30,407 nt of DNA from a virus (taxonomy: Duplodnaviria > Caudoviricetes): positions 1-30,407 of the IMG/VR virus record IMGVR_UViG_3300017754_000406; one strand, given 5' to 3'. The first letter of the stretch is position 1. Each line of letters starts with the position of its first letter. This document shows, one piece after another, positions 3,898 to 29,878 of this stretch. The position numbers and the translations under genes were made by a program. Under the pieces are notes generated by a model. It did not search any database. It was given only the letters and a program-made list of their open reading frames with translations, and had not been told where the DNA came from.

Positions 3898-5363
3898 CAG
3901 ACATAATAACTAGAATACCCGGATACTCAAACAAGGGCATGGTTGAATACTGCGACACACTTAAGAGGGTAATGCTGTCCACTAAAGACGTAAAGGTCGG
4001 GCGTGGTAAGGATGCCAAGATAGAACAGGTCCTGAAGTACAGGTCAGACAAGCCTGTCATTGACAAGATACTCAACAGCCACGAGCACTACTTAAAACTA
4101 TACACACAGGATATGGCACGAGAAACCACAGTCAAGCTAAGAGACTACCAGACAGACATAATAGACAGGGCCGTCCGAATCTTACATGAGCACCGTTTTG
4201 TTTATCTTGCAATGGAGGTTAGGACTGGCAAGACGCTCACTAGTCTCGGCATAGCAGAGGAGGTTCACGCAGACAAGGTCCTGTTTGTAACGAAGAAGAA
4301 AGCTATAGGGTCAATAGCTGCGGATCTCAATCTGTTCATGCCATCATACGACATGACGATCGTTAACTACGAGAGCCTTCACACTGTCGACGCTGACAGA
4401 ATGTGGGACCTAGTTATACTTGATGAGGCTCACAGCATGGGCGCATTTCCAAAGCCAAGCCAACGGGCTGAGGTTGTTAGTGGAATACTGAAAAGATGCA
4501 AGCCAAAGGTTATTCTGCTGTCCGGTACGCCGACGCCTGAGTCGTACTCGCAGATGTACCATCAGGTATATGGCATACCAAACAATCCATTCAGGGAGTT
4601 CTCAAACTTCTACAGGTTCTGTGACAAGTACGTCAAGGTAAAGCAGAGGAAGGTAAACGGCATGTTCGTTAACGACTACTCGGACGGAAGGCCTGAGATA
4701 CTTGAGGCGATGGAGCCATACACAATTAACTACACACAGAAGGAGGCAGGGTTTATAACCGAGACTACCGAGGAGGTGCTTGAGGTCCAGCTAAAGGATA
4801 GCACATATGCTATGATTAATAGGCTGAAGAAGGACCTAGTGATTGAGGGAAAGACCGAGCTGATACTGGCAGACACACCAGTCAAGCTGATGATGAAACT
4901 GCATCAGATGTACTCTGGAACCATCAAGTTCGAGAGCGGTGAGTCAATGGTTCTGGATACCACCAAGGCTGAGTTCATCCGTTCTCGGTTTGCAAACAGC
5001 AAACTTGGTATATTCTACAAGTTCAAAGAGGAGCTGGCTGCCCTGAAGAAGGTGTTCGGGGACGACCTGACCACTGATCTTGGTGTCTTCGATGACACAA
5101 GTAAGTCCATAGCCTTACAAATCGTGAGCGGACGTGAGGGTATAAGCTTACGAAATGCTGAGTACTTGGTCTACTACAACATAGACTTCAGTGCGACCAG
5201 CTACTGGCAGAGCAAGGACAGGATGACAACCAAGGACAGGCCAATGAATAATGTGTTCTGGATATTTGCCAAGGACGGAATCGAGTACGACATCTACAAG
5301 GCCGTGTCGAAAAAAAAGGACTACACAGTTGCCCACTTCAAGAAAAATTTACTAACATTGTAA
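3894..5363 (+). CDS. SF2 (SNF2-like/DEAH) helicase
   Basis: Start moved to ATG 3894 (ATGA overlap); Q motif LRDYQ, Walker A EVRTGKT, LDEAH, LSGTP, GREGISL, QSKDR. Confidence 0.88.
   Translation: MTDIITRIPGYSNKGMVEYCDTLKRVMLSTKDVKVGRGKDAKIEQVLKYRSDKPVIDKILNSHEHYLKLYTQDMARETTVKLRDYQTDIIDRAVRILHEHRFVYLAMEVRTGKTLTSLGIAEEVHADKVLFVTKKKAIGSIAADLNLFMPSYDMTIVNYESLHTVDADRMWDLVILDEAHSMGAFPKPSQRAEVVSGILKRCKPKVILLSGTPTPESYSQMYHQVYGIPNNPFREFSNFYRFCDKYVKVKQRKVNGMFVNDYSDGRPEILEAMEPYTINYTQKEAGFITETTEEVLEVQLKDSTYAMINRLKKDLVIEGKTELILADTPVKLMMKLHQMYSGTIKFESGESMVLDTTKAEFIRSRFANSKLGIFYKFKEELAALKKVFGDDLTTDLGVFDDTSKSIALQIVSGREGISLRNAEYLVYYNIDFSATSYWQSKDRMTTKDRPMNNVFWIFAKDGIEYDIYKAVSKKKDYTVAHFKKNLLTL
5329..5360 (+). 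promoter_or_regulatory. Possible Bacteroidota sigma70-type promoter
   Basis: TTG (5329-5331), 21-nt spacer, TAACATTG (5353-5360; one mismatch to TAnnTTTG), 7 nt before ATG 5368. Confidence 0.3.
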
Positions 5364-7434: not shown

Positions 7435-10400
7435 CTAGTCTAAGTTAATAATTCCTCCACCACTCTTCTTTTTACTTTTCCTTCCACTCTTTGGAGTGTA
7501 TTGATATGCCTCATCCTTAATCTCTCGCTCTAATTTTTGCATCTCTTTCCTAATCTCACGTTTAATTACCTCCTCAGGATTAACAATTTCATTGAGACCG
7601 CCTTCGCCGAATGTTTCTTTATACAGTTCAGGGTCGTATCGCTCCATGTCTGATCTTGTAGGATAACCTTGAAGCAGCAATTCTTCTAAGTCCTTCTTGA
7701 GTTTCTTTCTCTTTGATGACTTCCCAAGGTCTTTGTATATCTCCTTAAGAACAATCTTTCTAACGTCCTTATACAAAGGGATAAGACCAACATTCCCGAT
7801 AATCTCAAGAGGTATTCTAATTCCTATCTCCTTCTCTGTTATTTCCTTAGCCTCTTTAGTTTTCTTTGGAGCCTCAAGAATTTTTCTTAAAATCAGAAAA
7901 CCTGTCTTTGCTGATGGGCCAAGAGGTCCAAGAGTTGATGCTGCAAGGTCAACTATTTTTTTGTTTGCATCAGGTTTTTTACCTTCCTTATCTGGCGGAA
8001 CAATAGTAAACTGGATGGCATCCTTGTATGGATCGTAATCACCTTCTCTTAAGAAATCAAGCTTTCTTTTATTAACCTCCTCGATGCCTATATTAAACAC
8101 AGTTCTAACTGAGTTTCCGAAGTCTCTTCCAATCATTAGAGATGTAACAGATGATGCAACTGCTTGACCGAGCTTCTGAATAAATGACTTTTCATCCTCT
8201 TCCTCATCATCATCTCCGAACATTGACAACATGCTATTGCTAAGCTGCTGTGTAAGCAAAGAGTACACGACCATACGAGAAGTAACGGCAGCAATCAAAG
8301 CAGTACCCTGCCTTCTAGATATATCACCATTGCCCATCAGCGCATTGATGCCAGTTCTTGCAGTGATGTATTCGTAGGTTACAAACCTAGTCATGTAGTT
8401 GTTGAATCGATTGAAAGCTTTAGCAAATACAGACTGGTTCTGCATGTCTCTGCCCTTCAGGATACCCATGAACGGGTTGTCTGTGGCACTCATAAACGTA
8501 ACGTCCTGATCGGCCTTTGCTGTTGCAGACTGAAGCGCTTCCTTATTTTCATTCATGTAAGCCTCATCGTTGGATGCAATCTTATCAAAGTCAGGCTCTG
8601 TTCCTGTAATCTTTTTGAACTCAAGAGAGAACGAACCAAACCAAACTGGCCTTGTTACAATCTTATCGGGGGTAGATATCAACGCGTCGGCTGTCATCTC
8701 AATAGGGTTCTGAATCTTCTTCTTTACAACCCTTGTGTATATCTGATTGACTGCGTTTGCTACATCGCCTTTCGACTTACTATTCTTAATACCAGCCGCA
8801 TGCTTAAGCATGTTGCTATCAATCATTGAACCGCTAAGAGTGTTATCAGAGTATACCCTGTTTGTTTGAGAGCTGTTAAGGTTATTCATTACAGATACAC
8901 CCAAGGTAGAGAATACAATACCTTTAAGTCTGTACCCTTCAGCAAACATTTTACTTCCTCTTGACAGAACAAAGCTCATGTTGGATAAAAGCTCGGCCAA
9001 GAATCTTGGCGCACCGGCAAGAACAGCTCTGTATCCCTGAGTTGACAGAAAGTTTATGGCATCATCAATGGATGTTGTCTTGCCGAAAGAGCTGACCAGT
9101 ACATTCTCAAGAGCCTGCTCGTATGATTTACCAATAGCATTTGCTATGTCTCTTGCCTGCTTCCCCTTGACGCCATCTTTCATTACATTGATAGACATGC
9201 GTCCAGTTATGATAGGTTCTGTCAGGTAGTAGTCCATGAGCTGGCTTCTGCTGACAAAGTTTGTAACATTGAACGGATCAAAGTTGATAGCCTTTGCCTC
9301 TGGTGTACGCTCAATAAGAGACTTAGCTCTTGATGATGGCATACGACTGCTGCTAAAAGCCTCAATGATTGTCTGACCTGACAGGTCGTCCTTGGCCCTA
9401 CCATCTGATATCACGCTGTGGTGGATGTAGTTGTTGATTGGAACAAACTTCTCACCTCTTATTACGTTTGCGGTATACGATGCCTTTTCTGACAGATCCT
9501 TGTTGATGTCCTTTATAGTCCTGATAGCATTAAACTCAGCACCATTAAATGAATCCAAAAGCTCTTGCATATCAATCTGACCGTTGACAGCAAAGTCATC
9601 TACAATTTGTCGAAGCGTTTCTACATCATAGTCATTGAAGTTAGTCTCACCTGACTCGATAGCCTTTATGGTCTTGTTAATGAAGTCAATTGCAGGTGCT
9701 ACACCTTTCACTCCTGGGTTTGAGTTGTACTCAAGCTGGAGAAGGTATGTCATTATCTTGTACTTGGAAAGTCTAACCTTGGCTGGACTATCATTGAAAG
9801 ATGCAGACACATCATTTAATGCCTTGTCAAGCCTCTTGCTATTATTGTTGGACTCGGTGCTGAACTTAGCATAGGCTTTTGCAATTGGCTCGAACAGGTT
9901 CTTGTAGATTGTCTTTGTCTTGAAGTCTCCGAACACCTGATCGATATAGTAAAGAGGGTTACGAGCAATCATAGTAATGAAAGCATTCTTATCATTCGTA
10001 ACCAAGTTCTTTACCCTAGAGTACATCTTAGAGAACGACAAAGGCTCCGCGTTCTGGACTGCATTACCAAGTTCAGCCCCACTGTTTGCCGAGTTTATCT
10101 TCTTAATAATACGCTGGGCGTAGTGAGGGAAGAATCCGTTATTGATATTGTTTATTACACGAAGCAAGTTTTTCAGCTGCTGATTATCTAAAGACTCCAA
10201 ACCTTTTGTCTGAACTAACTCTGCTAGTCTATTGGCTGCGTCCCTTTCAGCTCTGCTTGGAAGGTTTGATGTATCAATCTCGGCGTCCTGAACAAAGTCC
10301 TGAAGCTGTCTTTTCTCGTCAGCTATTTCCTGCTCAGTCATTGGCGCCTTGACTTCAGCCGGAATGATAGTCGACCTGTACTTTCTCATAATCTCAGCAT

Positions 10401-13400
10401 CTGACGTACTGATAACACCAGCGTCAATCATCTTGTTGATGGTCTTACCAAAGTCAACCTCCCCATTATCGTCTAGCTCCTTGTCTTGGAAGTCGTCAAA
10501 CATTTCCTTCAGCTCTTCAGCCTTGAACTGCTCCTCCTCTACCGCATCAATTATATTAGCTGTGTCTCTTGCAACCTCTGATACATCAGCCAAATCAAGA
10601 ACAGCAGCACGCTCTGAAAGCATATTGACTAGGTCAACGTAGCTGTCAAGAACATCCATTGGTATCAGGTTCGGATTGATGGCAAGCATCTGTCTCAGCA
10701 TTGGCTTAAGGTCCTCAGATATACCAAGCTTGGTCTCGATGTTCTTCTTGGCTTTTGCCAGTGACTTACGGATACCAGCAATCTTGTCTGCGTACTCAGC
10801 GTTCTTGAATACCTTATCCATGTACTCAATAAAGTTTGACACAGACTTGTCGTCAAGAACATTTACTGCTGAGAATCTACGAAGTACAGCTGATGCCTGC
10901 TTGACGCTTATCTTTCCAGTACGTACAAGATCCTTAACAGATTTAGTCAGCTCTCCTGAAGCTTTTTTCCAAGCAGCCTTCAAGCTCTTGGCCCCAAGAC
11001 TCATGTTCTTTATTCGGTCTATAATTATCTGCTTGTCTGTTGTTGTAATTTTAGTAACATCATTCAGAAGACCTAACAGGCGGCGAGCAGATGGAGGGTT
11101 TCTGTATGCCTCACCAAGCATACCATTCACCTGACGCACCAGCTCATCGCGTTGGATGTCATCAGAATTTTTGTATATATCAGACTTGGATACGAATCTT
11201 TTTACCAGATCAATCATCTCCTGACCAGTAAGCTTACGCTTGAGTGCGTTCGGAATCAACGTGTCTGTCACGTCTCTCATCAGCTTGTCGTATCCGGGCA
11301 GCTCAGATACTGGCTTGCCTTCTTGTGCAGCTTGCTCTTTTACTGATTCTTTTATCTGGGCTGCTTCTGCTGTTTTTGATATTGATATTTCTCTTCCTAA
11401 TCTAATAGACTCAGACATCTGATTGAAGAAGTCAATCACTTCTTTCTTGCTGACAGTCTCCTTGAATGGAACAATCGCTCCGTTTGTTATCTGAGATACA
11501 ATCTTGTTTACTACCTGAGCAATCTTCTGGAACGTGCTAACTGGTATTTGCTTGCCCTGATCTGACATCAATGCGGAAAACTGAACAAGCCATTCTTCAT
11601 AACTCTTCTCTTCCCTATATTGAGATGCAAACTCATTTAATCCTTTTACGGTTGACTTTGAAAGTACTGATGTTAGTTGGTCTCTGAACTTACTAAACAA
11701 TTTTGGATTTTCACCAAAAGCTGCACTCATTACAGCATGAGCAACCTCATGATATACTGTCGTTGGGCTAGCATTTGAAAGGTTAATGTCTATCCTTACT
11801 ATTCTGCTACCATCTGGATATATTATTTGTGAAAATATACCTCTTGACTTTACTTTTGAACCAATCGACTCGGCGAAGGCGTCATAGTCACTACCATTTT
11901 CATGAAGATATATCTGTGCATTTGGTATAACAGACTGAAGTGTCTTCAGAACTTTCTTTGCAGCTGCAATTACAGACTTAACTCTTTCATCCTTTTGAGC
12001 TCTTGACTCAACATCCTCCATCATTGACTCGTTAGAGATGGATACTCCCTTCTGTTCCTTTACAGTTACCGGAGCTTCAAGCTCTCTTACAACACCAGTC
12101 TCAGCAGCAATAACTTTAGTCTGTATTGGCTTAGTCTTCTCCTCTCTTCCTTCTACAATATCTCTATACTTTTCTCTAACGCTCTCAGGCATAATTTCCC
12201 AAGAGTCAATCTTCTTATCGGGCACACCAACTACCTCTCCGAGTATTGTATTGTGATATGTTGAGTGCGGAGCATTTTCTCCTACACCAGTAGGCTTGCC
12301 GACAAGCATTATATCGTTTTGCTTGAAATCATTCTCTCTGTAGAAACCATCTCTCAGATCATTGTAGTCTACAAAAACATTGAATGTGCCAAGCAGTTCT
12401 TTAAGAGAACCCTGAGGAGCCGTCTTTAGTTTACCAATCTTATCGATGGCAATCAGGAACTCTTTTCTCTTGGTACTCTTAGATAGCTCCTCAAAAGAAT
12501 TGACTGAGTTTAATGCAGACTTTATTGTCTTCAGTTCATTGGTTTCTTTGCCAAAAGAGTTGATGGCATTCTTGAAATCCTCGAAGCTAGATGTCTTGTT
12601 TATTCTTTCAGCTATCAGGTCTAGAACCCTACGGTTAAACAGCTTTGCTTTTTCAGGAGACCCGCTGATAAAGAATATGTAATCGGCTTTGCTTACTTGC
12701 CCCTCTAATGTTTTCTTAGAAAGACCACTCGCCCACAGGATACCTTTACTTTTGTTTTCAGGATCTAGTGCGAAGCTTGGACCTGCATCTAGGTAGTGAT
12801 TGTCTCCAATGACAGCATCGTAGTAATTCCCACGCCCCAACTGGTCAGCCATCCAAAACCAAACCTTCTGCTTCTTCTCTATGATAGTCTTGATCAGGCT
12901 GTTGATATCAATCTTGTCAGACTCAGTAACAAACGAAAGAGGAGCAGGTGTTTTCGGGAACTTAACGTCAGTACCTTTCTGCTCTTTTACAATAACCTCA
13001 GGGTCCCCTATCGATACCGATGCTCCTTCCTCTACAGCTTGAGTATCCGGAGAAGCAGATGGTTCAACCACAGACGGGGCTGTTGGTGTAACTTCCGTAA
13101 CTTCCTGTGTCTTCAAAGACACTTCAGGAGCAGTCTTACCAATAGCGCTTTCAACTGCTTGAACTAGTTCAGGATTGCTGCCATCTGCTTTTGCCTTATG
13201 GTATGCTTCGGAAATTAAGTTTGCATTTATCTCAGAAACATTTGACTTATTAAAAACAATAATTTCCTGTCTTGGGATAGGTGATTTTAATCGAGTAAAA
13301 TTGTTTAACAAACCATCATACCCCATATTCTCTAACGCTCTTCTAAACTGAGGGTCTTCTTTTAGTTCTTGAGCATAATTACCATCGATATATTTTCCGT

Positions 13401-16326
13401 TCAATATCTCTTTTGGTATAAGTATATCTTCTTTTACCGTCTCTTTCCAAGATTCAACAAGTCTATCATTAAAGTCTTTTGTCACCTTTGCGTCAATATC
13501 AAAAAGATTTGACGTTGCTAATGATAGTTTTTTCAATACACCTTTTCCTTTAGTGTACATCTTCCCTACTATCTCATTTGGAGATATAAAAATATCCTTT
13601 TCAGGAAGTTCTTCTACAGGCTGCCCTCTAAAGTATTTTGTTGATTTTGTTTTTTCAAACAATGGTTCAATGTCTATGCCTTCCAACGCCTTAGATGTAC
13701 TCTCTACATCTCTTAGAGCAGGTGCTACTTCTTCTTGCGTGAGCGGAGCAGTGATGGTTTCTTGGACACCTTCTGCGGTAACTCCTTGAGGTTCTGCTTG
13801 GGGTTCTCCTTCCGCCACTTGTTCGCTAACTCTGGTTGTTGGCTGTACAGGTACTTCACCTGCTGCTTGCTTTTGAACGGCATCTTCTGATATTTTTGTT
13901 AGTTCTTCGTTAATTGCGTTTATTCTGTTCTGTTGTGGTTTAACCAATGCTGCGTCCTTACCCTCAACCTGCTGCTCCAAACCACGGCGCTCGCGCAGTA
14001 GGTTCATTGCCTTCTTTTTATCCTCAGTAGTAAGACCATCAGGCACTGAGTTCAGTAATGATATTGCATTTCGGTACTCATTCAGTTGCTCCTTTGCATC
14101 GGCAAGAGTAATCTCACCTGAGTTTACTTTCTCCTTAAGCTTTGCTACGTATGCTGATCTGATGTTATCATCCTGAGCTCCCAGCTCAAACATCTTAAAC
14201 ACATCATCGCTTACTCCAAGATATCCTTGTCCTCTATTTGCGGCTGCTATAGCACTTGGCATACCAAGAACCATACCTCCAATCCCCTCAGCTGCTGCCG
14301 CTTCAAGTATGTCTGCTGCATATTCACCCACCGTTAATGGCAGGTCAAACATTTTCTTTTCTTTAATGGCGTTGTATATATTTTTTGCGCCAAGCTCAGC
14401 AATTTGTTGGGCCGCTCCAGTCTCTGCCTCTGCTAAAACACCCCCAACAATTGTTAATGCACCTCTTGCGATACCACTTTCAACTTCATTCTTGACTAGC
14501 TCTCCAAATGTCTTTGCTGTTGTTGTGGCACCAGCCTTTCCTATAGCAGATAATGCTAGCCTATTAAGAAGACCTTTGTTGCCAACAACATTTCTAAATC
14601 CTAATCTTTCCAACTGAGCAACTACAATTGACAATGGAACTGATACAGCCATCTTCTCAGACTCTGAAACATCATTAAAGTCTGGATCACTGTTCATCTG
14701 ATTCATCATGTAGTCATGACTCTGACCTATAAGCTTTGCTGTTTTAACTACAGACCCGCCGCCAACAAATGAAGGTATTGACTCAATAGCGCCAAGAAGA
14801 ACACCAGACAACCAGTTCTGTTTTGAAGATTGCTCATACTCCCTTGTTGTGCTGGTAAACATTTCGCCTGCATTCTTTATCGCATCAATTACAACAGGCT
14901 TTTCTTCTTTTTTTATTTGGTCTTTTAGTCTGGACTGTATATCGCTTTTGTAATCATCACTCAATCCCATCCACCATTTCTCATAGCCTTCTCTTGTAAT
15001 CTTTCCATCAGGTCCTTTTTCTGGACCAGCAATGTTATCCTTTTGAGCCATTTCTATATAGCTCTCTTTAATCCAATCACTCCCCCTAATCCAGTCAATC
15101 GGTTGAACAGAATACGCAGCCTCTAAAGCCAAGTCAGCAATACCAGATACTATATTTGTTCCACCTCTAACCAATGCATCAATAACAAGATCATAAGGAG
15201 TTCCCTGCTCCGACTTCATCTCAGTATACTTACCGATAGCTTTATCAAGCGTAGCGCCTCTCTGAGCTATAGACTCCTGACGTGATTGTGCATTTGAGAC
15301 TCTTGAGTTATATGCAGCGCTCTTTACCTCATACATCTTCATTGCAGAGTCCTTTACGGTAGGATCTGTTATTGACTGTATTGAGTTGTATTCATTTGTT
15401 AGTTCCTGAGAAAGCTTTGCAAGATCCTTTAGCTCTTGGTTTAGAGCGTCAGCATCCTGACTGAAAATCTTTGTCTCAGCTTTAACCTCCTCATCTGTAA
15501 CAAACTTTCTGTTCTCGTCCTGATACTGCTTCTCAATCTTAGCCAAATCAATTGGCTTAATCTTCATTGACCCTGACTGAATAAATCTACGAAGACGGTC
15601 CGCTTCAGCTCCCTCCTTTGCTCCAGTAAATGCGTCAAGAGATATCTCAATAGTCTCTCCGGTAGGAGAGGTAGCCTTCATGTAATCTCCAAGAGCACCA
15701 GCCTCCTCAAACTTAAACCCTAGTGGGCCAAACTGATAGTTAAGGCTAGGCACCACATACTCCTCCTCCATACCAACACGCTCAGGAGTAATGCCCTCAA
15801 GAAGGGGCTTAATAAATCCGGGAGTGGCGGCCTCTCTTTCTGCCTCTCTTTTTGCAACATCTCTTGGGAGAACGCCAACTCTAGGAGCGGCTGTGCTTTC
15901 AGATACAATACCTACGGATGGCTTAATGATTGGCTCAGTCCCTGCTGATACCGACAAACCATCTTCCGATGGCAATGCCATAGCGGCGCGTTCCATTGCC
16001 TGCTGCCTTTGTGCGCCTCTTCCTACTGGAGTTGGAGACATTCTTGGCTGTACCTCTGGAGCCTTCTGTTGAGGAAACTGAACCATCCCCTGAGGAAGTC
16101 CCACCGTTGTCGGCTCCTCTTTTTTTTTATAAGGTGCTTGGAATCGTCCGACCATTGAGCCGAACTGAGTAGCGTCAGAGACTAAACCATTTATCTGAGC
16201 GTATGAGAACATGTCATCAAACACCTCTTGGTCTGTCTTGATAAGCGAAGCAAAATCGTTACGAGATTTTTTATATCCCAAAGATGTTGCTCTGTTATAT
16301 AGTTGGTCTATCAGTTTCTCGTCCAT
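7435..16326 (-). CDS. Giant (2963 aa) putative internal virion/ejection protein of large polyvalent type, with ART-like and zincin (HExxH) modules
   Basis: Last gene of the tail/ejection cluster; Gly/Ala hydrophobic helices at about aa 380-700; ART-like motifs at aa 883-1036; HEVAH at aa 1526; long helical C-terminal half; tandem TAG TAG stop. Confidence 0.8.
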   Translation of the reverse strand: MDEKLIDQLYNRATSLGYKKSRNDFASLIKTDQEVFDDMFSYAQINGLVSDATQFGSMVGRFQAPYKKKEEPTTVGLPQGMVQFPQQKAPEVQPRMSPTPVGRGAQRQQAMERAAMALPSEDGLSVSAGTEPIIKPSVGIVSESTAAPRVGVLPRDVAKREAEREAATPGFIKPLLEGITPERVGMEEEYVVPSLNYQFGPLGFKFEEAGALGDYMKATSPTGETIEISLDAFTGAKEGAEADRLRRFIQSGSMKIKPIDLAKIEKQYQDENRKFVTDEEVKAETKIFSQDADALNQELKDLAKLSQELTNEYNSIQSITDPTVKDSAMKMYEVKSAAYNSRVSNAQSRQESIAQRGATLDKAIGKYTEMKSEQGTPYDLVIDALVRGGTNIVSGIADLALEAAYSVQPIDWIRGSDWIKESYIEMAQKDNIAGPEKGPDGKITREGYEKWWMGLSDDYKSDIQSRLKDQIKKEEKPVVIDAIKNAGEMFTSTTREYEQSSKQNWLSGVLLGAIESIPSFVGGGSVVKTAKLIGQSHDYMMNQMNSDPDFNDVSESEKMAVSVPLSIVVAQLERLGFRNVVGNKGLLNRLALSAIGKAGATTTAKTFGELVKNEVESGIARGALTIVGGVLAEAETGAAQQIAELGAKNIYNAIKEKKMFDLPLTVGEYAADILEAAAAEGIGGMVLGMPSAIAAANRGQGYLGVSDDVFKMFELGAQDDNIRSAYVAKLKEKVNSGEITLADAKEQLNEYRNAISLLNSVPDGLTTEDKKKAMNLLRERRGLEQQVEGKDAALVKPQQNRINAINEELTKISEDAVQKQAAGEVPVQPTTRVSEQVAEGEPQAEPQGVTAEGVQETITAPLTQEEVAPALRDVESTSKALEGIDIEPLFEKTKSTKYFRGQPVEELPEKDIFISPNEIVGKMYTKGKGVLKKLSLATSNLFDIDAKVTKDFNDRLVESWKETVKEDILIPKEILNGKYIDGNYAQELKEDPQFRRALENMGYDGLLNNFTRLKSPIPRQEIIVFNKSNVSEINANLISEAYHKAKADGSNPELVQAVESAIGKTAPEVSLKTQEVTEVTPTAPSVVEPSASPDTQAVEEGASVSIGDPEVIVKEQKGTDVKFPKTPAPLSFVTESDKIDINSLIKTIIEKKQKVWFWMADQLGRGNYYDAVIGDNHYLDAGPSFALDPENKSKGILWASGLSKKTLEGQVSKADYIFFISGSPEKAKLFNRRVLDLIAERINKTSSFEDFKNAINSFGKETNELKTIKSALNSVNSFEELSKSTKRKEFLIAIDKIGKLKTAPQGSLKELLGTFNVFVDYNDLRDGFYRENDFKQNDIMLVGKPTGVGENAPHSTYHNTILGEVVGVPDKKIDSWEIMPESVREKYRDIVEGREEKTKPIQTKVIAAETGVVRELEAPVTVKEQKGVSISNESMMEDVESRAQKDERVKSVIAAAKKVLKTLQSVIPNAQIYLHENGSDYDAFAESIGSKVKSRGIFSQIIYPDGSRIVRIDINLSNASPTTVYHEVAHAVMSAAFGENPKLFSKFRDQLTSVLSKSTVKGLNEFASQYREEKSYEEWLVQFSALMSDQGKQIPVSTFQKIAQVVNKIVSQITNGAIVPFKETVSKKEVIDFFNQMSESIRLGREISISKTAEAAQIKESVKEQAAQEGKPVSELPGYDKLMRDVTDTLIPNALKRKLTGQEMIDLVKRFVSKSDIYKNSDDIQRDELVRQVNGMLGEAYRNPPSARRLLGLLNDVTKITTTDKQIIIDRIKNMSLGAKSLKAAWKKASGELTKSVKDLVRTGKISVKQASAVLRRFSAVNVLDDKSVSNFIEYMDKVFKNAEYADKIAGIRKSLAKAKKNIETKLGISEDLKPMLRQMLAINPNLIPMDVLDSYVDLVNMLSERAAVLDLADVSEVARDTANIIDAVEEEQFKAEELKEMFDDFQDKELDDNGEVDFGKTINKMIDAGVISTSDAEIMRKYRSTIIPAEVKAPMTEQEIADEKRQLQDFVQDAEIDTSNLPSRAERDAANRLAELVQTKGLESLDNQQLKNLLRVINNINNGFFPHYAQRIIKKINSANSGAELGNAVQNAEPLSFSKMYSRVKNLVTNDKNAFITMIARNPLYYIDQVFGDFKTKTIYKNLFEPIAKAYAKFSTESNNNSKRLDKALNDVSASFNDSPAKVRLSKYKIMTYLLQLEYNSNPGVKGVAPAIDFINKTIKAIESGETNFNDYDVETLRQIVDDFAVNGQIDMQELLDSFNGAEFNAIRTIKDINKDLSEKASYTANVIRGEKFVPINNYIHHSVISDGRAKDDLSGQTIIEAFSSSRMPSSRAKSLIERTPEAKAINFDPFNVTNFVSRSQLMDYYLTEPIITGRMSINVMKDGVKGKQARDIANAIGKSYEQALENVLVSSFGKTTSIDDAINFLSTQGYRAVLAGAPRFLAELLSNMSFVLSRGSKMFAEGYRLKGIVFSTLGVSVMNNLNSSQTNRVYSDNTLSGSMIDSNMLKHAAGIKNSKSKGDVANAVNQIYTRVVKKKIQNPIEMTADALISTPDKIVTRPVWFGSFSLEFKKITGTEPDFDKIASNDEAYMNENKEALQSATAKADQDVTFMSATDNPFMGILKGRDMQNQSVFAKAFNRFNNYMTRFVTYEYITARTGINALMGNGDISRRQGTALIAAVTSRMVVYSLLTQQLSNSMLSMFGDDDEEEDEKSFIQKLGQAVASSVTSLMIGRDFGNSVRTVFNIGIEEVNKRKLDFLREGDYDPYKDAIQFTIVPPDKEGKKPDANKKIVDLAASTLGPLGPSAKTGFLILRKILEAPKKTKEAKEITEKEIGIRIPLEIIGNVGLIPLYKDVRKIVLKEIYKDLGKSSKRKKLKKDLEELLLQGYPTRSDMERYDPELYKETFGEGGLNEIVNPEEVIKREIRKEMQKLEREIKDEAYQYTPKSGRKSKKKSGGGIINLD
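13725..13883 (-). CDS. Nested (overprinted) 52-aa basic protein of MPFKS type in the +1 frame of the giant gene
   Basis: Translates as MPFKSKQQVKYLYSQQPELANKWRKENPKQNLKELPQKVSKKPSLLRSRKKK*; A-rich leader with A at -3 and -10 to -14; absent from the supplied ORF track (<60 aa). Confidence 0.7.
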   Translation of the reverse strand: MPFKSKQQVKYLYSQQPELANKWRKENPKQNLKELPQKVSKKPSLLRSRKKK

Positions 16327-28444: not shown

Positions 28445-29878
28445 TTAAGAACCGTAGCGGAACAACACGAAGTTGTTAGCGCCCAAGGTACACACACAAC
28501 GCTCGGACAGGAAGTTGACTTCCATTGCATCGAGGTCGCTAGTCTGAGCACCACCCGCAGAACCTGTAATCCAAGTCTTATAGCGGCGGTCTTCAGCCTC
28601 AGTGGCGCGATAACGAACGTGCAGGAACGGACGCTTAGCGTTCTTTCCGAGGATCTGATCGTACACGGTAGTGGAACCAGCAGGAACCAACAGACCAGTT
28701 ACGGTACCAGAAGCAGAAGCTCCGGTTGGCAGACCACCACGCATTGTGGGATCGTTCAGGTATTTCCAGTCAGACTTGTAGAAGTCATAACCACGACGGA
28801 AACCGCTGAAACCGAGGTTCAGAGCCATGTCGGTATCGTTATCGAACAGACCGAAAGAAGCAGCCTGAGCAGCACCAGTACCATTGAAACCATTCAAGGT
28901 AGCCAGCATGTCATCGATATCGAAAGAGAAGTCACGGTTAACGAAGATTACGTTCTCCTCGATAGAACCTTGCTTATCCAAGCGAGAGATGATAGTGTCG
29001 AAGTCTGCCAGAGTTGTGGGGTTACCACCGCCCCATACGTTACCACGGCTGTTTACTACGTAGAAGATTCCCTCAGAACCTTTGTTACCAAAGCTAGGGT
29101 TCAACGCAGAGTTAGCAGCACCAGAACCAGACTCAGCAGGAACTGCCTCGATCATTGCAGTCTCAAGATAGTCCTCGAAACGCAGACGAGTCTCGTGCTC
29201 ACTCTTCAGGTACCACAGGTATCCAGTAGCACCGTTCTCGGTAGTTACTTCAACCCATCCAATCTGAGCCATGTCAGAACCGCTAACAGCGTATTTGTCC
29301 TTGATGATGATCGGGCTGTTCTGGAAGATTTCGTCTTCAGCTTCCAAAGAACCAACCATTCCAACAGTTCCTTTCTTAAACTCAGAACCATAGATCCATA
29401 CAGATACAGTTGCTGTGATAGCAAAAGTCTGGCCGGGGCCTTCGTAGTAAGCAACAGTGAAAGTGTCAGTAGCTGTGTTAACAGCAGTAACGATACCCTT
29501 ATTGCTAAGTCCAGTAGCGTTATCAGAAATAAAGACAGTCTGACCAGCACGGATAGCGATAGCAGTTACGTTAGCATCGTTAACAGTGATAGTAGCAGAG
29601 TCAGCACCAGCAGCAGCAGAAGTAGCACAGTTAGTGTACTTGGTGTGCAGACGGCCTTGCTCAGCCCACTTAATCAAGTCAGAGTTGGATGGCATCTCGG
29701 CGCCAACCAAACGGAGGAAAGAAGCGACGGTACGGTTACCATAACGCTCAAACTCCTTCTCATAAGTATCAGGAAGATACTGGTTCAAGAAGTTGAAGTT
29801 GGTGATGTAGTTCGTCGATAGGGGAACCTGCTCAGCACTTGGCTGTAACTGGAACCCGGGGGTAGATAATACAGGCAT
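28445..29878 (-). CDS. Major capsid protein
   Basis: 477 aa; QYLPD.YEKEFERYGNR and SDLIKWAEQGRLH motifs recalled from Bacteroidota podovirus capsids; strongest codon bias in the window; scaffold-like gene upstream and terminator downstream. Confidence 0.85.
   Translation of the reverse strand: MPVLSTPGFQLQPSAEQVPLSTNYITNFNFLNQYLPDTYEKEFERYGNRTVASFLRLVGAEMPSNSDLIKWAEQGRLHTKYTNCATSAAAGADSATITVNDANVTAIAIRAGQTVFISDNATGLSNKGIVTAVNTATDTFTVAYYEGPGQTFAITATVSVWIYGSEFKKGTVGMVGSLEAEDEIFQNSPIIIKDKYAVSGSDMAQIGWVEVTTENGATGYLWYLKSEHETRLRFEDYLETAMIEAVPAESGSGAANSALNPSFGNKGSEGIFYVVNSRGNVWGGGNPTTLADFDTIISRLDKQGSIEENVIFVNRDFSFDIDDMLATLNGFNGTGAAQAASFGLFDNDTDMALNLGFSGFRRGYDFYKSDWKYLNDPTMRGGLPTGASASGTVTGLLVPAGSTTVYDQILGKNAKRPFLHVRYRATEAEDRRYKTWITGSAGGAQTSDLDAMEVNFLSERCVCTLGANNFVLFRYGS

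What the first reader, a model, noticed from the sequence alone, without database searches (positions are those of the whole stretch)
13725..13883. Hidden overprinted gene: 52-aa basic MPFKS-type protein inside the giant ejection-protein gene
Seen: the acidic, low-complexity linker DAVQKQAAGEVPVQP...TQEEV (aa about 815-868 of the giant protein), read in the +1 frame, gives a complete ORF from ATG 13883 to TAG 13725: MPFKSKQQVKYLYSQQPELANKWRKENPKQNLKELPQKVSKKPSLLRSRKKK (13 K, 3 R, 3 E). Its leader, AACTAACAAAAATATCAGAAG, has the Bacteroidota initiation pattern (A at -3 and -10 to -14). Recalled, not searched: MPFKSxxQ..YL....PE.A..W..E.P....LP.KV is a widespread family of free-standing small phage proteins, and DA(V/I)Q.Q...EVPV linkers recur in giant phage proteins. 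Inference: that linker motif may be the shadow of a conserved nested gene encoding a DNA-binding or condensing virion peptide, or a partner of the adjacent ART cassette. Standard gene callers would miss it.
Basis: partly seen in the sequence, partly recalled or inferred. Interest (0 to 1): 0.9.

Follow-up and report, generated by a model that had tools for sequence, protein, structure and literature searches.

The report
Portable gene nested in phage gene
A gene for a 52-residue basic protein lies one base out of step inside a giant phage virion-protein gene, is the reading that selection preserves on that DNA, also occurs free-standing or nested in an unrelated scaffold-like gene in other phages, and likely makes a small protein packed inside the phage head.

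Summary
Confirmed: an ATG-to-TAG ORF (13883-13725, 52 aa) sits in the +1 frame of the 2963-codon gene. It is under selection. In a host-frame search with all third positions free, 103 of 103 distinct matches keep the ATG and 12 of 14 third positions are invariant, while host first positions vary. The family is large (1,967 clusters). It occurs free-standing, as an N-terminal domain, nested in giant genes (98 distinct loci, cultured Elemovirus included) and nested in non-homologous scaffold-like genes (63). 41 of 42 positive records hold one copy; one complete relative has none. The small gene therefore looks older than its host linker: a captured, portable gene rather than a newly overprinted one. 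An ART partnership is unsupported (2 of 87). Neighbourhood, charge and a predicted two-helix fold suggest a DNA-neutralising internal head protein; this is inferred, and there are no expression data. The scan noted this nesting before on other genomes. In passing: a conserved A9-A10 run opens a second hidden (-1) frame in the same gene.

The parts
13725..13883 (-). Nested +1-frame gene, 52-aa MPFKS-family basic protein (predicted helices 6-15 and 17-26, K/R-rich tail)
13884..13904 (-). Leader of the nested gene: A at -3 and -10 to -14, weakly structured, in-frame stop 6 codons upstream
13723..13884 (-). Host-frame acidic linker (codons 815-868) read from the same DNA
7435..16326 (-). Host gene: 2963-aa giant polyvalent-type protein, last gene of the virion module; the Elemovirus gene at the same position is annotated 'structural protein'
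13120..13710 (-). Variable cassette after the linker; ART-like (no Pfam hit itself; 37% over 121 aa to the C-terminal part of an ART-PolyVal domain plus its trailing module in L048)
16120..16128 (-). A9 run at host codon 67, predicted slippage or -1 frameshift site (separate feature, seen in passing)
15935..16126 (-). Hidden -1 frame of 63 codons without a start codon, ending in a conserved YGIxxGxWFxG motif (separate feature)

Best explanation
The 52-codon ORF is a conserved gene read in the +1 frame of the giant gene, likely translated from its own A-rich start site into a small two-helix protein with a lysine-rich tail that is predicted to be packed inside the phage head and neutralise or organise the DNA. 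Shown: the ORF, selection on its frame, its family, and its three genetic settings (free, nested in the giant gene, nested in the scaffold-like gene), nearly always one copy per genome. Inferred: independent initiation from the late transcript. Inferred: origin by capture of a pre-existing small gene into a tolerant host linker, because the K/Q/P-rich peptide reads one base back as a stop-free acidic spacer once codons such as Phe3 are fixed at TTC. Inferred: exchange of the ~130-bp dual-coding cassette by recombination. Least certain: the virion-internal, DNA-binding role.
For: Host-frame search: ATG in 103/103; 12 of 14 free third positions invariant, the other two only A/T (nested Tyr/Phe); GCC in 103/103 against 211 of 1604 Ala codons in the flanks. 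Parsimony changes per site at host positions 1/2/3: 11.2/4.2/1.4 in the overlap against 15.4/10.2/23.7 in the control; scaffold B set 2.2/0.6/0.5 against 1.9/1.2/4.2. Free copies with the -1 frame closed in P-RSP2, S-CBS2, C75C1 and FlowerPower gp48. Phe3 is TTC in 161/161 nested copies but TTT in 34/47 non-nested ones. Leader A-3 0.86/0.76 and A-13 0.90/0.95 against 0.37 for control +1 ATGs; MFE -1.4 against -6.1 (determinants in PMC6847099 section 15). Giant- and scaffold-nested copies reach 97% aa and 92% nt identity over 30 codons, although the hosts share no BLAST similarity. The nearest large neighbour is portal/terminase (19), virion structural (14) or tail (2) in 35 of 49 non-nested loci. 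Median net charge +11 to +14; domain at residues 1-3 in 138/150 hits; predicted helix hairpin, mean pLDDT 72.
Against: No expression or proteomic evidence was obtained. The gene is dispensable in this lineage: 5 of 10 host-selected loci lack it and the complete genome G035 has no detectable copy. L357, and probably L350, carry a TAG at codon 30 that removes the basic tail; L106 starts with ATT. The window's leader lacks A-6, and only 37% of giant-nested and 25% of scaffold-nested leaders exceed the control 95th percentile on a PWM of true starts. No characterised homologue: no Pfam hit, phrog_1375 (unknown function) only weakly, no PDB sequence or fold match. Neighbour counts are not independent (many related phages), and most locus sets were found with the nested peptide itself.
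Confidence: 0.6

Rival explanations
1. The gene is real but its protein acts in the infected cell (host takeover, anti-defence or timing of late events) and is not packaged.
For: Dispensable and exchanged between lineages; nested in the giant gene just before variable conflict-type cassettes such as GNAT, ART and ParB; FlowerPower gp48 lies next to the holin gene.
Against: Non-nested copies lie beside portal, terminase and virion genes, and no nearest large neighbour was a named replication or metabolism gene. The family occurs in phages of cyanobacteria, Streptomyces and Flavobacterium, which fits a universal target such as DNA better than one host protein (inference).
Confidence: 0.25
2. The ORF is an N-terminal tag: ribosomes start at its ATG and slip -1 into the host frame, giving an MPFKS-tagged C-terminal isoform of the giant or scaffold protein.
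For: The domain is N-terminal in 41 of 43 longer homologues; in L227 it is fused in frame to the scaffold core.
Against: A slippery heptamer occurs in only 9 of 98 giant-nested and 7 of 63 scaffold-nested ORFs, and the window's tail reads AAG AAG AAG TAG. L227 differs from its relatives by a single-base shift that may be an assembly error.
Confidence: 0.07
3. The peptide is a partner or inhibitor of the adjacent ART-like domain.
For: The window's next cassette resembles ART-PolyVal in part.
Against: Pfam ART domains follow in only 2 of 87 giant loci scanned; the window's segment has few close matches among 97 loci; 63 copies lie in scaffold-like genes.
Confidence: 0.03
4. The ORF is only the shadow of a conserved host-protein motif or of a non-coding DNA or RNA element.
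For: The host frame is also open and fairly conserved there (58% median identity).
Against: Variation falls on the nested wobble positions and spares host-synonymous positions. Nested L202 and free L216 share 93% aa at 69% nt. The host-frame motif differs between subfamilies and is absent where the ORF is absent.
Confidence: 0.03

Closest known systems
Embedded spanin genes, lambda Rz1 in the +1 frame of Rz (PMC6139136: abstract and section 11 read)
   Same: A small gene lying wholly inside another in a shifted frame on the same strand.
   Different: No Cys, lipobox or membrane segment here. The host genes are virion genes and two non-homologous ones. The paper found no spanin family with both embedded and separated members, whereas this family is embedded, free and fused.
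PHROG 1375 (unknown function)
   Same: 21 of 30 family members match it at E<=0.1, best 2.7e-05, over the helical core.
   Different: The match is weak (window peptide E 0.039) and carries no function or note of nesting.
Small basic virion proteins: phiX174 J, T7 gp6.7/gp7.3, T4 internal proteins with an N-terminal capsid-targeting sequence (recalled, not tested)
   Same: Small, basic, encoded among head genes; an N-terminal module found on varied cargo proteins.
   Different: No sequence or fold similarity shown; those genes are not nested in linkers.
Polyvalent proteins (PMC5512222: passages read)
   Same: The host giant protein family carries swappable ART-PolyVal, ddrB-ParB, LPD23 and GNAT modules after the linker and lies among virion genes.
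   Different: This describes the host frame only. The passages read say nothing of nested genes; the whole text was not read.

Membership tests
Embedded (nested) protein-coding gene | Complete ORF wholly inside another ORF in a shifted frame | tested here: met
Embedded (nested) protein-coding gene | Purifying selection on the nested frame | tested here: met
Embedded (nested) protein-coding gene | Own translation initiation signal | tested here: inconclusive
   ATG conserved, A-3 and A-13 enriched, weak structure; the PWM separates only part of the leaders from controls
Embedded (nested) protein-coding gene | Protein shown to be made | not testable with these tools
   no RNA holder listed; no Ribo-seq or proteomics available
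De novo overprinted gene (nested frame is the newer one) | Nested protein restricted to the overlap, with no free homologues | tested here: not met
   free and fused homologues are widespread
Rz1-type o-spanin | Lipoprotein signal with Cys | tested here: not met
   no Cys; highest 15-residue hydropathy -0.5
Rz1-type o-spanin | Embedded in an i-spanin of the lysis cassette | tested here: not met
   hosts are the giant virion gene or the gene between portal and capsid genes
PHROG 1375 | Significant profile match | tested here: inconclusive
   E 0.039 for the window peptide, best member 2.7e-05
Internal head / DNA-neutralising virion protein | Small, strongly basic, encoded in the morphogenesis module | tested here: met
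Internal head / DNA-neutralising virion protein | Present in virions and binds DNA | not testable with these tools
   needs virion mass spectrometry and a binding assay

The most novel reading that the evidence does not exclude
A ~130-bp self-contained dual-coding cassette, with its own start site and a reading that doubles as an inert acidic spacer, works as a portable nested gene that moves between unrelated essential virion genes. Its two-helix N-terminus is a general head-packaging tag used across unrelated tailed phages, and the giant gene yields three proteins from three frames.
Probability: 0.35. Interest if true: 0.88.

Novelty: new variant of a known kind. Interest (0 to 1): 0.72.

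Why it matters
It shows a route to gene overlap other than de novo overprinting: an old free gene carried inside the linker of a larger one, at two unrelated host sites. It exposes an unannotated gene in hundreds of aquatic Bacteroidota-type phage contigs (383 and 458 matches, overlap not counted) and in cultured Elemovirus, so it can be tested directly. It explains a recurring 'linker motif' of giant phage proteins as the shadow of another gene. It also points to a large phage protein family (about 2,000 clusters) that has no known function.

Tried and rejected
PDB sequence searches with the peptide and two alignments gave only summed weak hits to repeat-propeller proteins, rejected as artefacts. 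Foldseek: nothing at E<=0.001 in PDB or BFVD; the BFVD top rows are unnamed or uncharacterised small phage proteins. The wide VIA fold search was never run. Complex prediction of two capsid subunits with the peptide: no verdict, score 0.00, no evidence either way. Sequencing runs: no RNA holder listed. ESM Atlas: only unnamed viral clusters; DUF3008 at 0.84 is a lead only. PDB search with the capsid protein found no relative. The single phage-paper hit for 'MPFKS' is an unrelated C-terminal string. G022 has two copies 67 kb apart in a 99.6-kb record; whether this is an assembly duplication was not checked. The control region for the giant-gene parsimony count aligned poorly (31 gap-free codons), so the scaffold sets and carry more weight.
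Full report
Observation. window:13725-13883(-) encodes MPFKSKQQVKYLYSQQPELANKWRKENPKQNLKELPQKVSKKPSLLRSRKKK. It starts at codon 815, phase +1, of the 2963-aa ORF 7435-16326(-). The window is a 30,407-base virus record: replication genes on one strand and a virion module on the other, with several PHROG 'virion structural' hits and a crAss muzzle C-terminal domain. The +1 frame of the giant gene has 5 ATG ORFs of 41 aa or more, so length proves nothing. Contigs from two studies reproduce the stretch with 0-2 differences per piece (one may be the source sample).

Conservation. A viral scan with the peptide found 383 relatives; all 80 kept are ATG-started ORFs of 41-53 aa in the +1 frame of a long host ORF. 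That set was chosen by the peptide, so I ran two less biased tests. First, loci found with non-overlapping parts of the host protein: 5 of 10 carry the nested ORF (L082 and L083 are near-identical), two of them a divergent subfamily; the other 5 lack both the ORF and the DA(V/I)QxQ linker in the DNA held. Second, a DNA pattern written from the host-frame motif with all 14 third positions free: 119 loci, 103 distinct. All 103 have the ATG; 12 of 14 third positions are invariant; the other two alternate only A/T, which is Tyr/Phe in the nested frame; most free host first positions vary about evenly. GCC is used in 103 of 103 against 211 of 1604 Ala codons in the flanks. Against this: 101 of 103 are open for 38 codons or more; L357 has a TAG at codon 30, and L350, cut by the locus end, shows the same base. 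On trees built from host flanks, parsimony changes per site at host positions 1/2/3 are 11.2/4.2/1.4 in the overlap against 15.4/10.2/23.7 in the control (68 loci; only 31 control codons aligned without gaps), and 2.2/0.6/0.5 against 1.9/1.2/4.2 in 33 scaffold loci. In three of four metagenomes laid on the 9-kb gene, contigs of other sequences at 80% likeness pile up most on the bin with the nested ORF, with loose ends at 13883-13888. I use this only to mark where similarity lies.

Family and settings. A profile finds 1,967 clusters at E<=0.001; in the best 150 the domain lies at residues 1-3 in 138, including 41 of 43 proteins over 100 aa. Among 208 distinct loci from three peptide scans plus the window: 98 nested in giant genes, 63 nested in a ~400-aa gene between portal and capsid genes (scaffold by position and acidity, my inference), 31 free, 16 N-terminal fusions. 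In 53 MAG loci: 23 nested, 29 free, 1 fused. Cultured examples: nested and unannotated in Elemovirus gp21 'structural protein'; free and unannotated in P-RSP2, S-CBS2 and C75C1; annotated as a hypothetical gene in FlowerPower (gp48) and 023Pt_psg01. The giant and scaffold hosts show no BLAST similarity with the overlap masked, yet their nested copies reach 97% aa and 92% nt identity over 30 codons (L107, L163); nested L202 and free L216 share 93% aa at 69% nt. Phe3 is TTC in 161 of 161 nested copies (TTT would stop the host frame) and TTT in 34 of 47 non-nested ones. Of 47 records searched (42 picked as known carriers, 5 as host-selected negatives), 41 have one copy, one has two and five have none, one of them complete with terminal repeats. 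On a 28-row capsid tree, 7 of 8 scaffold-nested phages form a supported group and the eighth lies outside the giant-nested group; peptide subfamilies A and B are scattered among giant-nested phages (5 and 6 changes); gene-less records sit inside that group (one row is a very long branch, and two partial rows were left out). This fits loss and allele exchange; the order of events is not rooted.

Initiation. Nested leaders have A at -3 in 0.86 (giant) and 0.76 (scaffold) and at -13 in 0.90 and 0.95, against 0.37 for 6,555 control +1 ATGs and 0.72 and 0.93 for 89 true starts; median folding energy is -1.4 against -6.1 kcal/mol. A at -3, -6, -12 and -13 are positive determinants in Flavobacterium johnsoniae (PMC6847099, abstract and section 15 read). 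The window's leader lacks A-6 and scores at the 96th percentile of controls, but only 37% and 25% of nested leaders pass the 95th. Translation is inferred, not shown.

Function. AlphaFold2 predicts helices 6-15 and 17-26 and a low-confidence tail (mean pLDDT 72); M1, P2, F3, Q8, P17 and W23 are invariant in 30 diverse members; median net charge is +11 to +14. For 49 of 51 non-nested loci with a large neighbour, the nearest is portal or terminase in 19, virion structural in 14, tail in 2, an unknown family at the scaffold position in 8 and unnamed in 6 (the loci are not independent). I commit to an internal head protein whose tail neutralises DNA and whose N-terminal hairpin may act as a packaging module; the analogy to phiX174 J, T7 gp6.7/7.3 and the T4 targeting sequence is recalled, not tested. 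No Pfam, PDB or named fold match exists; phrog_1375 matches weakly. The ART idea fails: of 87 of the 97 giant loci scanned, 2 have a Pfam ART domain in the next 400 aa, others have GNAT, ParB, LPD23 or nothing recognised, as expected of polyvalent proteins (PMC5512222, passages).

Comparison and novelty. Embedded genes are known (Rz1 in Rz). The spanin survey found no family with both embedded and separated members (PMC6139136, section 11); this family is free, fused and embedded in two unrelated hosts. Searches (listings only, plus one passage) found no description in the held library, which lacks most subscription papers. The scan's own notes report the same nesting on at least ten other windows, one in a scaffold-like gene; these are unchecked and are not counted as support. 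Verdict: a real nested gene, a new variant of a known kind, with function inferred.

In passing. An A9 run at 16120-16128 opens a 63-codon -1 frame. 93 of 94 giant genes have an A9-A12 run near codon 68, against 5 runs of 8 or more in 150 kb downstream. No -1 frame there holds a Met. 41 carry a YGxxxGxxxxG-type core motif that is absent from control -1 frames. It is present also in genes lacking the MPFKS ORF, and the scan has noted it before.

Noticed in passing
window 16120-16128 and 15935-16126 (-): A9 run at codon 67 of the giant gene followed by a start-less -1 frame ending RRYGIAIGRWFVGISRD; A9-A12 runs in 93 of 94 relatives. Predicted slippage or frameshift product of about 129 aa. Noted before by the scan on other genomes.
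   Followed up: yes
L121, L123, L127, L150, L163, L197, L202, L224 (match at 4001): The same nested gene lies 35-76 codons into the open frame of the gene between portal and capsid genes instead of in the giant gene.
   Followed up: yes
L227:3859-5041: The MPFKS frame is fused to the scaffold core and the scaffold N-terminus ends early; a single-base shift relative to relatives, natural or assembly error unknown.
   Followed up: partly
L357 and L350: TAG at nested codon 30 keeps the two helices and drops the basic tail.
   Followed up: partly
L106:4001: Nested copy starts with ATT instead of ATG.
   Followed up: no
L097-L176: Subfamily B carries two conserved cysteines (ACY...WDC) in the helical hairpin; possible disulfide or metal site.
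   Followed up: no
L177-L255 neighbourhoods: Free copies sit among other small basic ORFs rich in KKGG/AxGG motifs between portal and scaffold-position genes; DUF6321 and DUF5661 modules occur on some long MPFKS-led proteins.
   Followed up: no
G022 (L125 record), 20976 and 87894: Two copies 67 kb apart in a 99.6-kb record; possibly a duplicated assembly.
   Followed up: no
window 13120-13200 (-): A short ISEAYHKAKADGSNPELV module after the ART-like segment recurs in other giant proteins (L048, L006, L060, L012).
   Followed up: no
window 28619-29821 (+): A 400-codon ORF antisense to the capsid gene.
   Followed up: no
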